Positions 15,001-18,000 of a stretch of DNA of 18,580 nucleotides are shown here, piece after piece. The stretch lies in the IMG/VR virus record IMGVR_UViG_2537562015_000012; one strand, 5' to 3'. How positions within the stretch are numbered: the stretch's first letter is position 1; each line of letters starts with the position of its first letter. Position numbers: made by a program. This DNA is from a virus. Taxonomy: Duplodnaviria; Heunggongvirae; Uroviricota; Caudoviricetes.

Positions 15001-18000
15001 CACCTTTCAGTGTCCGAAGGGTAAAAAACATCAATTACATAAGCAACACCAATTGGTATTAATGCTAGTAATAACATCGACACAGGACGTACAAACTTCT
15101 GAACTATATCAATTTTATAGAACCACAAGGCGGTATGTTTAATGATATAAGTAAAGATGGCTGCGCCAATAATGGCAAAAAACACCATCGATAAAGTCGG
15201 GTATAACTTTGCGACAATTAAACCCAACAAAATAATTATAACTGCCTGCCCCCTCACACCAACCCTCCCTTTAGCTTTGTTTAGAATGGCAATCATCATA
15301 TATCCAAGACATGGCATTTGGTACATAGCTTGGGTCGGGATTTCAAATCCGCTCCCCGTTGATGGGGCCGTTACAGTACGCGCATATCCGCTTTATGTGA
15401 AACAGGAAGATTTTTCTGATATCACTGCCACAGCAAAACACCAATTTCGTGACCAGTACGCGCGCGAGGTGTATCAGTTGCAAAATTTTTTGCAGCTGTG
15501 TCCGACCAGTACGCACGCGATGGCGGGGAGCACCATAAAACTGTTCTCTACATAAGACAGAGTGGTGGTGATGTGTTGATTATCGGCGTATATGCGCACA
15601 GGACGCGCTATGACGATGTTTTATGCGGGTACACCAATCACATGTATCTGGTGTGATAAATCGCGTTACATGACCTCTCATGTTGTGCTGGTGGTTATCA
15701 CGACGTTCTGAATCTGGCCTTTGCCTGATATTTTGCGACAAGTACGCGCGCGTAGCATCGACAGCATACACATTGGATATTCATTTTGTGACCAATGCGA
15801 TAAGTAGCGGGATAAGAATTGATAAAATCAACAGGACGATGATCCACTTCTGATTCTCGTCCATCTTATCTGCTAGGCGACGCTCCATTCCGTGCATATC
15901 ACCGCGAATGGCAATCATCTCATTGCGAACATCCGAGAAGTGGTTGGCTTGATGTTCAATGTGTGGCGTTCTGCCTTTCATTCCTGATCCTCACCTATCG
16001 TCACCACCTGCTGGTGTATAAAGGTATTGGCCCAAGCAGCTTTCTAATGGGCACTCATGTTTATACGCTGACCTTACAATCAATCACCGCTTTTAACTTT
16101 TCAGCATTGCTTCCCTGACGCTTCCACGCGCTGTAAATATCTTTATCCCACGCTTTACCAGCTTTTGTTTGATAGCCTGCTTCATTGATCCGTTCAGCTA
16201 TCACACGCCCATTATCAAATCCCTGTCGGATGGTATCGGCAATGATCTTTATAACTGCCGTTTCGTTATATGGCTTTGGTGGGATGTTCGGCTTTCCGGC
16301 AATAAGCGACGCAGCGGCTTTTTCCATGCGCTCCACCAGCCCAAGCATTCGTGAATCAATAGACTTTTCCGGCTGTCCCAGCTTCATGCGAATCGCATCA
16401 ACAAGCCAGGAGGTTTTATCCCCTCCAGAAGCGAGAACAGACCGATTAAACTCATCCTGCAATTCAGATGGGATGCGGAACGCGACCAGATTAGATTTGC
16501 TCATTGCAAAGACCATATCAGTGAGTAATATCCATACAGTATACCACTGTATAACACTGTTATACGCTCAAATATCAACCAGAAAATAACGGACCAATCA
16601 CAAAGCTATCGCTGTGTTGTTGGTTCAGAGCTGGACTGTGTTGGTTCAAAATGAGTTGATGTTGGTTCAATATTTCTGAAAAAACACAATAAAAACAACG
16701 ATCTTTACAAATTGAACCAACTGAACCAACACCTTTTTGCTTATCTATATAATCTGAGAGGCAGAAATGATAAGGGACAGGAAAGCTGAAGAGCTGGAGT
16801 CAAAAGGGCTATACCGGAGAGCTGCCGCACGATGGGCAGAAGTCATGATGCTGGCAGATGGCGATAAAGAACGTGAACATGCAGCAAACAGACGCTCTGA
16901 ATGTATCCGTAAGGCGGCACGCCAACCAGCAACTACAGACAGATTCGGAGATTTAAGACAGGCAGTTAAGCGGACTCATTCGGCTCTTGGTATGGATGAG
17001 GAAGCGAGAGGGTACTTCAGGCGTTATCGCGATAAAGATTGCCAGAGACAGTAATGCTCTCTCTGTTTTGGCAAATTACCCCTCACTTTGAAGGGATCGG
17101 AGCTATAAAAATGGTGTTATCCGGCTTCCTCAAATTTAGGTTTTCGAAAGAATCAATGGGTTAGGTCATCGTGCAAATTTGCACTCTGCCAGCCAACGCA
17201 ATTTCTCGTTGGCGGAAATATCAGGTATTTACTGAACGAACGGTCTACCAGTCTGTTCAGTTACCAGTTGCACATGGCTGTTTCATGTGAGAACGGAGGT
17301 TTTTTCGGACATCGCTATTGGGTACAGCAATTTCACGAGCAATACGCGCGCGCAGGACAACAAGCCTGAACATGGTTACACACCTCGAGCCTGAGGGATG
17401 TAGGCAATGGCTTCTGACCAAAGCACCCGAAAAAACCGTGTACATAAGGGTGTACATAATCAAAAATCGCATTAGAAAGAAACCAGCCACAATGCGGCAT
17501 TGAAGCCAACACTCTACAAACAGATTCAAGAGTAACTCGTAACACTAATTCTTACTTTTCAGCCTTCACAAATGCCGCCCACTCAAACAGAGCGGCATTT
17601 TTCTTCCCCGCAACTTCAATTCTGTTTTGCGTGCCTGCTCCAGATTTTGCGATGTTTTTTTGCCCAGCACACTGAGAACGTGAGATACTCACAACTGTAT
17701 ATAAATACAGTTACAGATTTACTTTCTTTGCAATCGATATCACATGGAGTGGGCAATGAACGAACATCATCAACCTTTTGAAGAAATACGGCATTATGGC
17801 ACTGAAGGGCAAGAATTTTGGTCAGCTAGAGAATTGGCACCGTTACTGGATTATCGGGACTGGCGCAATTTTCAAAAGGTACTGGCCCGCGCGACTCAAG
17901 CGTGCGAAGCCAGCAATCAAGCTGCATCTGACCATTTCGTTGAAACCACCAAAATGGTTGTATTAGGTTCAGGGGCTCAACGAGAACTTGAAGATGTTCA

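What the first reader, a model, noticed from the sequence alone, without database searches (positions are those of the whole stretch)
16618..16766. 21-bp phased TGTTGGTTCA iterons plus inverted copies overlapping the promoter of the PerC-like gene
Seen: three perfect TGTTGGTTCA direct repeats at 16618, 16639 and 16660 (exactly two helical turns apart), then two inverted copies (16712-16721, 16722-16731) ending 17 bp upstream of a TATAAT (16748-16753) and 36 bp upstream of the PerC-like start. The array lies between divergent genes (the RHH-domain gene on the minus strand, the PerC-like gene on the plus strand). Inference: this is a cooperative operator that controls the PerC-like gene and possibly the divergent RHH gene; the RHH protein is the obvious candidate binder.
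Basis: seen in the sequence. Interest (0 to 1): 0.6.

Follow-up and report, generated by a model that had tools for sequence, protein, structure and literature searches.

The report
Spare satellite replication origin beside perC
The repeats upstream of the PerC-like gene are a second, inverted copy of the replication origin used by a common class of phage-satellite islands, but this island encodes a different replication protein, so the repeats are not the operator of the neighbouring small regulator as first thought.

Summary
The repeats are real. GTTGGTTCA occurs three times at 21-bp phasing, then a 79% A+T stretch, then two abutting inverted copies, ending 16 bp before a TATAAT upstream of perC.

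The window is an EcCIMP1-like phage-inducible chromosomal island (PICI) of E. coli, inserted between yicC and dinD.

The array aligns column for column with the origin that lies 27-89 bp after the stop of primase-helicase genes with a DUF927 C-terminal half. I found that arrangement in 63 independent loci. It has the architecture of the tested EcCICFT073 and SaPI origins.

Islands of that type often carry a second, inverted copy at their far end. There its tandem iterons abut a TATA box that faces perC, int or another gene.

The window's Rep has a DUF5906/D5-type C-terminal half and its own ACCTRTACC origin. The GTTGGTTCA array therefore has no cognate initiator here.

The 147-aa putative RHH protein is not the likely binder. 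The array occurs widely without it. A separate element next to its gene (16534-16565) changes with its N-terminal strand residues, while the iterons do not.

Best reading: an orphan ori copy that carries the perC promoter. Whether it fires or binds Rep in trans is untested. This is a new variant of a known kind and of moderate interest.

The parts
16618..16669 (+). Left arm: three TGTTGGTTCA iterons (16618, 16639, 16660) spaced 21 bp apart
   Evidence: The copies are exact. Across 12 distal arrays from E. coli and other loci, among them Klebsiella, Serratia and Pantoea, the iterons are 85-100% identical pairwise. The two spacers are 33% and 55% identical and the left flank is 26%.
16670..16712 (.). 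A+T-rich core (79% A+T), the presumed melting region. It contains the conserved AAACAA-N4-CTTTACAAAT at 16693-16712.
   Evidence: Composition. The conserved block is 82% identical across distal arrays. It is also present, as ATTTGTAAAGA..GTTGTTTT, in the origins next to primase genes (alignment A1).
16713..16731 (-). Right arm: two abutting inverted iterons TGAACCAAC (16713-16721 and 16722-16730, followed by an A). Relatives have 1-4 units.
   Evidence: The units are 92% identical across distal arrays. The window lacks one 9-bp unit compared with L005.
16732..16766 (+). Outward promoter-like box (CCTTTTTGCTTATCTATATAAT, with TATAAT at 16748-16753) and the perC leader with GAGAGG before the ATG
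   Evidence: Where a tandem set carries a TATAWD hexamer 9-23 nt downstream (mostly 9-15; 40 of 113 distinct sets), it sits in a TTTTGYWTATATA-like box and the set faces away from a primase gene. By eye most sets without one run into the 3' end of a primase gene, but roughly 20 face away from a primase gene and have only a weaker box such as TATCTATAGAG or TTATTATCAG. No -35 hexamer is present. Promoter activity is inferred, not shown.
16767..17054 (+). PerC-family gene (95 aa), the gene downstream of the array
   Evidence: Pfam PF06069 at E=1.3e-32. Annotated as a PerC family transcriptional regulator in RefSeq.
16534..16565 (-). Likely operator and promoter of the RHH-like gene. On the minus strand it reads GTATAACAGTGTTATACAGTGGTATACTGTAT and includes a TGgTATACT extended -10.
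   Evidence: It is conserved next to class-A RHH genes in the window, L016, L132, L140 and L142. Next to class-B genes it is replaced by TGTCTTAC repeats. The promoter reading is inference from the sequence.
16061..16504 (-). 147-aa (151 aa from the upstream ATG) putative RHH plus C-terminal helical-domain protein
   Evidence: 371 homologues in Enterobacterales, none with a Pfam family; one source names it 'Arc-like DNA binding domain protein'. AF2 mean pLDDT 75, with residues about 81-140 above 90. No significant fold match.
6392..8743 (+). The island's own primase-helicase (Rep): Zn-ribbon and Toprim N-terminal half, DUF5906 (D5-type) C-terminal half
   Evidence: Pfam. Only residues 1-351 resemble the DUF927-type protein of L007 (85% identity); the C-terminal halves are unrelated. 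The window holds no homologue of the DUF927 C-terminal half.
8773..8875 (.). Candidate cognate origin of the island's own Rep: ACCTGTACC/ACCTATACC iterons on both sides of an A+T-rich stretch, starting 30 bp after the primase stop
   Evidence: Identical in L128-L130, which carry the same Rep. It has the same position and layout as the tested EcCICFT073 origin (PMC6092414).
9884..9979 (.). Second cluster of the island's own iteron (GGTACAGGT/ACCTGTACC), 1 kb beyond its origin
17437..17460 (+). Candidate attR (CGTGTACATAAGGGTGTACATAAT). Its partner lies upstream of int, outside the window.
   Evidence: A 24-nt direct repeat brackets the island in L001 at 4298-4321 and 21038-21061.

Best explanation
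The array is a complete, inverted, far-end copy of the replication origin used by PICI primase-helicases (Rep) whose C-terminal half is of the DUF927 type, the type of the SaPIbov1 Rep.

How such origins work is known from SaPI Reps. Hexamers of the self-loading helicase bind iterons through a C-terminal winged-helix domain, one hexamer on each side of an A+T-rich region, and melt it.

In DUF927-type islands one origin lies just after the rep gene. A second, inverted copy lies 5-9 kb away at the end of the island. The tandem iterons of that second copy overlap the -35 region of an outward-facing promoter that reads into perC here, and into int or other genes elsewhere.

The island in the window is a mosaic. 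Its Rep C-terminal half and the adjacent origin were exchanged for a D5/DUF5906 type with ACCTRTACC iterons, while the RHH-array-perC end module was kept.

In this island the GTTGGTTCA array therefore has no cognate initiator. It most likely serves as the carrier of the perC promoter. It could be bound or fired only if a DUF927-type Rep is supplied in trans by a co-resident island.

Shown: the homology, the position, the co-occurrence with Rep type and the selective conservation of the iterons. Inferred: Rep binding, origin activity, promoter activity, and silence in this island.
For: - Element type. Gene order and content match EcCIMP1-like PICIs: int, alpA, antirepressor, ash, primase, P22-type ejection proteins, perC (PMC11773190).
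- Homology. The reverse complement of the perC array aligns column for column with the arrays 3' of DUF927 primase genes in L007 and L006: three tandem iterons, ATTTGTAAAGA..GTTGTTTT, then three TGAACCAACA.
- Census. In 63 of them an array of at least three exact 9-mers starts 27-89 bp (median 49) after a DUF927-type C-terminal half that is 63-100% identical to L007. The N-terminal primase half varies between 39% and 87%. None has the window's C-terminal type.
- Other Rep types have other iterons in the same position and layout: ACCTRTACC in the window and L128-L130, CCCTACC in L138, and TGTCTACC in EcCICFT073, whose origin was tested by deletion (PMC6092414).
- Sibling island. E. coli A20 (L143) is 96% identical to the window from int up to the primase gene and 95% identical over RHH-array-perC-attR. 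It encodes the DUF927 Rep and has both the primase-adjacent and the far-end GTTGGTTCA arrays.
- Orientation. The far-end copy is inverted relative to the primase-adjacent one in every locus checked that holds both: L007, L020, L029, L052, L063, L096, L113, L132-134, L136-137 and L143.
- Selection. Iterons are 85-100% identical, spacers 33-55%.
- Promoter box. A TATA-containing box follows many of the tandem sets that face away from a primase gene; about a third of such sets carry only a weaker version.
- Literature. The SaPI Rep C-terminal winged-helix domain binds iterons placed on both sides of an A+T-rich region just downstream of rep (PMC9371898). DUF927 marks the SaPIbov1-Rep/Cch helicase class and D5_N marks the SaPI5 class (PMC7581432).
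Against: - No experiment links GTTGGTTCA to any protein. Rep binding rests on position and co-occurrence.
- The array is not next to a rep gene in the window, and the window has no cognate Rep, so origin function here is doubtful.
- SaPI Rep1 discriminated poorly between origins in vitro (PMC9371898), so cross-recognition by the D5-type Rep cannot be excluded.
- The array keeps its iterons in remnant loci without any rep gene (L003, L004). That could mean a Rep-independent role, or only recent descent.
- Copy number drifts in D5-type islands: 3+2, 3+3, 2+4, and 2+0 in L130. This fits relaxed constraint but is not a test.
- The promoter has no -35 hexamer and no transcript data were available.
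Confidence: 0.7

Rival explanations
1. Auxiliary Rep site that is active in cis. The island's own D5/DUF5906-type Rep, or its shared N-terminal primase half, still recognises the GTTGGTTCA array. The array would then act as a second origin, a P4 crr-like enhancer, or a copy-number (handcuffing) site for this island.
For: Two clusters of the same iteron per island is the usual layout in this family. The window's own iteron also has a second cluster at 9884-9979. SaPI Rep1 showed weak origin discrimination in vitro (PMC9371898). The N-terminal 351 aa are 85% identical to those of the DUF927-type protein.
Against: The iteron sequence next to the rep gene follows the C-terminal half, not the N-terminal half. 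The N-terminal half varies from 39% to 87% with unchanged iterons, and swapping the C-terminal half swaps the iterons. The C-terminal halves show no detectable similarity.
Confidence: 0.12
2. The array is a cooperative operator bound by the adjacent 147-aa RHH protein, which controls perC and its own gene.
For: The RHH gene and the far-end array are neighbours in the window, L001, L005, L036, L104, L112, L118, L128, L132-134, L136-137 and L143. Some RHH regulators, such as omega of pSM19035 (from memory), bind arrays of short repeats in direct and inverted order.
Against: The array is present without the RHH gene upstream of perC (L002/L007, L003, L004, L129) and at 63 primase-adjacent sites. 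RHH genes occur without any GTTGGTTCA (L138, L139, L142) or with none nearby (L042, L059, L094, L131). A different element directly upstream of the RHH gene changes with the protein's N-terminal strand class, while the iterons stay the same.
Confidence: 0.06
3. Recombination sites. The repeats are arm-type sites for the integrase or for the AlpA/excisionase protein in the P' arm of attP.
For: The array lies about 700 bp from the candidate attR. The integrase has an arm-binding domain (PF13356). Excisionase-type proteins bind tandem direct repeats (general knowledge).
Against: No copy of the motif lies near attL. A different repeat, GTGTACATA, marks both island ends. Integrases of loci with identical iterons are 24-98% identical and AlpA 36-89%. 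The same motif sits directly after rep genes, far from any att site.
Confidence: 0.04
4. PerC autoregulation. PerC itself binds the repeats upstream of its own gene.
For: The array is linked to perC in many loci, and the first 27 or so perC codons travel with it.
Against: PerC variants only 53% identical sit behind identical arrays. The same array precedes int or other genes with no perC (L016, L102, L029, L113). The window and A20 have PerC proteins that the annotation lists under neighbouring accessions (DNA about 95% identical across this region), yet different rep-adjacent iterons, so the motif belongs to the Rep module.
Confidence: 0.03

Closest known systems
PICI / SaPI replication origin (Ubeda et al. 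2007; Fillol-Salom et al. 2018, PMC6092414; Qiao et al. 2022, PMC9371898)
   Same: Two sets of short iterons in opposite orientation flank an A+T-rich region. The iteron sequence is specific to the Rep C-terminal type. Homologous copies lie 27-89 bp after the rep stop in 63 loci. The layout matches the tested EcCICFT073 origin: tandem 9-bp units, an A+T-rich stretch, then inverted units.
   Different: In the window the array is 7.9 kb from the rep gene, inverted, upstream of perC, and does not match the island's own Rep type. A second, far-end copy was not mentioned in the PICI papers I read (PMC6092414, PMC11773190). The exact-motif search found no relevant paper either.
Satellite phage P4 ori plus crr (cis replication region), both bound by the alpha primase-helicase (Flensburg and Calendar 1987; Ziegelin et al. 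1993; recalled from memory; P4 alpha and its origin are mentioned in PMC6092414)
   Same: A satellite with a fused primase-helicase-origin-binding protein and two separated clusters of the same iteron, several kb apart.
   Different: The proteins were not compared with P4 alpha here. P4 crr is needed in cis by the element's own alpha protein, whereas the window's array does not match its own Rep. The PICI far-end copy is a full origin copy with an A+T-rich core and an outward promoter.
Auxiliary iteron clusters and promoter-overlapping inverted iterons of plasmids (P1 incA, R6K, pSC101; general knowledge)
   Same: Extra initiator-binding repeats lie outside the working origin. Inverted repeats overlap a promoter, so initiator occupancy is coupled to transcription.
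   Different: Those sites control the rep gene or the copy number of the same replicon. Here the promoter drives perC or int, and the element is an integrated phage satellite.
Repeat-array operators of RHH regulators (Arc/Mnt, CopG, omega; general knowledge)
   Same: Short repeats in direct and inverted order lie in a divergent promoter region next to a putative RHH gene.
   Different: Co-occurrence and covariation tests fail for the iterons. They point instead to the separate element at 16534-16565.

Membership tests
PICI/SaPI-type replication origin | Two sets of iterons in opposite orientation flanking an A+T-rich region | tested here: met
   Three direct copies, a 43-bp stretch of 79% A+T, then two inverted copies.
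PICI/SaPI-type replication origin | Located immediately 3' of the rep (pri-rep) gene | tested here: not met
   In the window the array begins 7.9 kb after the primase stop (8743). Homologous arrays do occupy that position in 63 other loci and in L007, L006 and L143.
PICI/SaPI-type replication origin | A cognate Rep with a matching origin-binding C-terminal domain is encoded by the same element | tested here: not met
   The window's Rep has a DUF5906 C-terminal half. It shows no similarity to the DUF927 C-terminal half. Its adjacent iterons are ACCTRTACC.
PICI/SaPI-type replication origin | Supports Rep-dependent replication; Rep binds the iterons | not testable with these tools
   This needs a gel shift or a plasmid-maintenance assay. 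Only EcCICFT073, which has a different iteron, has been tested (PMC6092414).
P4-like ori/crr pair | A second cluster of the same iterons at a distance within one element | tested here: inconclusive
   Met in DUF927-type relatives (L007, L143, L132-137 and others). In the window the far-end cluster differs from the rep-adjacent one.
P4-like ori/crr pair | The second cluster is required in cis for replication | not testable with these tools
   This needs deletion analysis.
Operator of the adjacent RHH regulator | The sites co-occur with the regulator gene | tested here: not met
   Arrays occur without the gene (L002-L004, L007, L129, and 63 primase-adjacent arrays). The gene occurs without arrays (L138, L139, L142).
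Operator of the adjacent RHH regulator | The site sequence changes with the DNA-reading residues of the regulator | tested here: not met
   The iterons are identical in both N-terminal strand classes. A different element next to the gene changes with the class.
EcCIMP1-like PICI (the element that holds the array) | int, alpA, antirepressor, ash, primase, DNA-transfer genes and perC, with no virion or lysis genes, at a specific att site | tested here: met
   Searches compared with the gene list in PMC11773190. A 24-nt direct repeat brackets the island. Induction by a helper phage was not tested.

The most novel reading that the evidence does not exclude
Far-end origin copies may be a working part of these satellites and a channel of cross-talk between them.

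In DUF927-type islands the Rep would bind both inverted copies, as P4 alpha binds ori and crr, and would couple replication to an outward promoter. After excision and circularisation that promoter reads through perC and attP into int.

A mosaic island such as this one, with a D5-type Rep but a retained GTTGGTTCA origin, could be replicated in trans by a co-resident DUF927-type satellite, or could titrate that satellite's Rep. Either would amount to piracy or competition between satellites.
Probability: 0.15. Interest if true: 0.7.

Novelty: new variant of a known kind. Interest (0 to 1): 0.45.

Why it matters
PICI origins have been described as a single site just after the rep gene. These data show three further things:
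- One widespread enterobacterial lineage often carries a second, inverted origin copy at the island end, fused to an outward promoter.
- Modular exchange of the Rep C-terminal half leaves islands with an origin that does not match their initiator.
- The census gives a simple rule for annotation: the iteron sequence follows the Rep C-terminal type (GTTGGTTCA with this DUF927 lineage, ACCTRTACC with the window's D5 type, TGTCTACC in EcCICFT073).

If the orphan copy responds to a Rep supplied in trans, it would be a route for satellites to exploit or interfere with each other.

The analysis also points experimenters to the correct operator for the RHH-like protein, and it shows that perC, a virulence-regulator homologue, sits behind an origin-linked promoter.

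Tried and rejected
- Integrase arm sites. Rejected: no copy of the motif near attL, a different repeat lies at both island ends, and integrases are unrelated across loci with the same iterons.
- RHH operator. Rejected by co-occurrence and covariation.
- PerC autoregulation. Rejected: divergent PerC proteins sit behind identical arrays, and some arrays have no perC.
- Origin of a helper phage. A distant search of 50,697 phage records found only one weak partial hit, in a Klebsiella phage.
- Structured RNA. No Rfam match in 15300-17800 at E<=1.
- Fold of the RHH-like protein. The AF2 model is moderate (pLDDT 75) and Foldseek against the PDB gave nothing significant. A PDB sequence search gave only a chance hit.
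- Standard sigma-70 scan. It found no promoter in 16000-17800.
- Literature. The exact-motif search found no relevant paper. The search for P4 crr found nothing usable, so the P4 comparison rests on memory.
- Co-resident DUF927-type island in the window's own strain. I could not test this, because the E. coli search lists at most 60 records and cannot be limited to one genome.
- More distant relatives of the window's D5-type Rep. The search in IMG/VR returned only three loci with 99.8-100% identical Rep halves, so selection on the array within D5-type islands could not be measured.
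Full report
**1. Observation**

The sequence is as described. TGTTGGTTCA is exact at 16618, 16639 and 16660 on the + strand, 21 bp apart. On the - strand the 9-mer core TGAACCAAC is exact at 16713-16721 and 16722-16730.

With one mismatch allowed the window holds 8 hits against 1.3 expected, and none of 200 shuffles reached 8. The 43 bp between the two sets is 79% A+T, against 53% for the window.

A TATAAT lies at 16748-16753, 16 nt after the last repeat. The PerC-family ORF starts at 16767 (Pfam E=1.3e-32). 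The TATAAT has no usable -35 hexamer.

**2. Context**

The window is an E. coli island, 100% identical to ETEC-type strains. It sits between yicC and dinD and is bracketed by a 24-nt direct repeat.

Its genes are int, an AlpA-type regulator, an AntA/B antirepressor, DUF4222, ash, a primase-helicase, P22-type ejection proteins, several minus-strand genes including the 147-aa RHH-like gene, and perC. This matches the EcCIMP1 family of phage-inducible chromosomal islands, whose helper is a P22-like phage (PMC11773190). The window also carries an IS1 copy that its closest relatives lack.

**3. The array travels without the RHH gene**

Homologous perC upstream regions exist in loci with no RHH homologue: the ETEC1747 island (L002/L007) and remnants next to ykgL (L003, L004).

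Those loci have the same three phased iterons, the A+T-rich core and three tandem inverted units. The spacers are largely different. PerC itself is only 53% identical between the window and L003.

**4. The array is an origin copy**

In L007 and L006 the same 9-mer forms a mirror-image array directly after the stop of a TOPRIM+DUF927 primase-helicase gene. The reverse complement of the perC array aligns with these arrays over its whole length, including the A+T-rich block ATTTGTAAAGA..GTTGTTTT (alignment A1).

That position and layout, two opposed iteron sets around an A+T-rich region just 3' of pri-rep, is the published PICI origin. It was tested by deletion in EcCICFT073 (PMC6092414). In SaPIs the Rep C-terminal winged-helix domain binds such iterons, one hexamer on each side (PMC9371898). 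DUF927 marks the SaPIbov1-Rep/Cch helicase class, and D5_N/DUF5906-like domains mark the SaPI5 class (PMC7581432).

**5. Census**

- In 63 of them an array of at least three exact 9-mers begins 27-89 bp (median 49) after a DUF927-type C-terminal half that is 63-100% identical to L007.
- The N-terminal primase half in those loci ranges from 39% to 87% identity.
- Integrase and AlpA range from 24% to 89% or are not detected.
- None has the window's C-terminal type.

Rep proteins of other types have other iterons in the same place:

| Rep / locus | Iteron after the rep gene |
|---|---|
| Window and L128-L130 (DUF5906) | ACCTGTACC / ACCTATACC |
| Buttiauxella L138 (D5-type) | CCCTACC |
| EcCICFT073 | TGTCTACC |

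**6. The window is a mosaic**

Its Rep shares only residues 1-351 (85% identity) with the DUF927-type protein. The C-terminal halves are unrelated, and nothing else in the window resembles the DUF927 half.

E. coli A20 carries a sibling island at the same site. It is 96% identical from int up to the primase gene and 95% identical across RHH-array-perC-attR. It has the DUF927 Rep, a rep-adjacent GTTGGTTCA origin, and the far-end array.

In complete E. coli genomes the L007-type DUF927 half with its origin occurs in 413 genomes, the window's D5-type half in 130, and the RHH/array/perC region in 550. The D5-type region is at least 97.5% identical in the full-length matches listed, so that combination appears young.

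In D5-type islands the array varies: 3+2, 3+3, 2+4, and 2+0 in L130.

**7. Far-end copies are common and are linked to a promoter**

Where a locus holds both copies, the far-end one is inverted relative to the rep-adjacent one in every case checked (L007, L020, L029, L052, L063, L096, L113, L132-134, L136-137, L143).

Pairwise identity across twelve far-end arrays, from E. coli and other loci including Klebsiella, Serratia and Pantoea:

| Part of the array | Pairwise identity |
|---|---|
| Iterons | 85-100% |
| Tandem units | 92% |
| AAACAA-N4-CTTTAC | 82% |
| Spacers | 33-55% |
| Left flank | 26% |

Many tandem sets that do not face a primase gene are followed by a TTTTGYWTATATA-like box: a TATAWD hexamer 9-23 nt downstream, mostly 9-15, in 40 of 113 distinct sets. 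About 20 more such sets have only a weaker version (TATCTATAGAG, TTATTATCAG). A gene reading outward follows: perC, ssb, an integrase gene, or an unidentified gene. A protein on the tandem units would sit over the -35 region. Whether it would activate or repress is unknown.

**8. The RHH-like protein**

It has 371 homologues and no family assignment. AF2 gives helices at 13-25 and 30-41 after the N-terminal strand region, plus a confident C-terminal helical domain. Foldseek finds nothing significant.

Its homologues split by N-terminal strand:
- SNLVAFR genes are preceded by GTATAACAgtGTTATACAGTgGTATACTGTAT (window 16534-16565).
- SLSVTFR/SMSVTFR genes are preceded by TGTCTTACnnTGTCTTACG.

GTTGGTTCA is the same in both classes. 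It is absent from several loci that have the gene. This supports autoregulation at the element next to the gene and argues against the iterons as its target.

**9. Mechanism and its limits**

Shown:
- homology to rep-adjacent origins;
- Rep-type specificity of the iterons;
- selective conservation of the iterons;
- the mosaic origin of the mismatch between array and Rep.

Inferred:
- DUF927-type Rep hexamers bind the two arms;
- the far-end copy acts with the rep-adjacent one, in the manner of P4 ori/crr, in cognate islands;
- the right arm holds the perC promoter;
- in this island the array is silent as an origin unless a matching Rep is supplied in trans.

Cross-recognition by the D5-type Rep is not excluded.

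**10. Novelty and verdict**

PICI origins are known. I did not find a description of a second inverted copy at the island end, of its fusion to an outward promoter, or of islands that carry an origin of another Rep type (PMC6092414, PMC11773190).

I rate it a new variant of a known kind, with interest 0.45. The operator idea survives only in the sense that the right arm overlaps the perC promoter. The proposed binder is not supported.

Noticed in passing
window 15444-15466, 15730-15752, 17330-17352: A G+C-rich 23-nt element (ATTTYRCGASMARTACGCGCGCG) occurs three times in the far end of the island. Two copies are 286 bp apart upstream of the RHH gene and one lies after perC. The same element recurs near far-end arrays in 23 other loci, including Serratia. 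No convincing ORF or Rfam match explains it.
   Followed up: partly
window 9884-9979: A second cluster of the island's own iteron (GGTACAGGT/ACCTGTACC, four to five copies in both orientations) lies 1 kb beyond the candidate origin, after the 245-aa ORF. The D5-type Rep may therefore also have an auxiliary site.
   Followed up: partly
window 2272-2307: Two copies of TTTTTTCAATAGATT lie 21 bp apart, about 80 bp upstream of the AlpA-type gene (2388-2606). They may be a regulatory site for the island's master regulator (L001 6650-6685).
   Followed up: no
window 10647-14083: The island carries homologues of P22-type ejection / DNA-transfer proteins (phrog_917, phrog_6704/770). The sibling islands A20 and ETEC1747 carry a different set with a lytic transglycosylase. 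This cargo is unusual for a satellite and fits a P22-like helper.
   Followed up: partly
window ~14100-14880: An IS1 copy (transposase ORF 14328-14831) makes the window about 777 bp longer than its otherwise near-identical relatives such as L001. The A20 sibling instead has an ISL3 element between perC and dinD.
   Followed up: no
window 6392-8743 compared with L007 8670-11426: The primase-helicase is a domain chimera. The Zn-ribbon/Toprim half is 85% identical between the two islands. The helicase/origin-binding halves (DUF5906 against DUF927) are unrelated, and similarity ends near residue 351.
   Followed up: yes
L016 9280-9480 and L102 9512-9700: In some contigs the same far-end array and TATA box are followed directly by a tyrosine-integrase gene rather than perC. 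In the window's circular form the array promoter would likewise point through perC and attP toward int.
   Followed up: partly
L006 3085-5966: One E. coli island shows tandem partial duplications of its ssb gene just downstream of a double origin array, with three truncated ssb copies about 710 bp apart.
   Followed up: no
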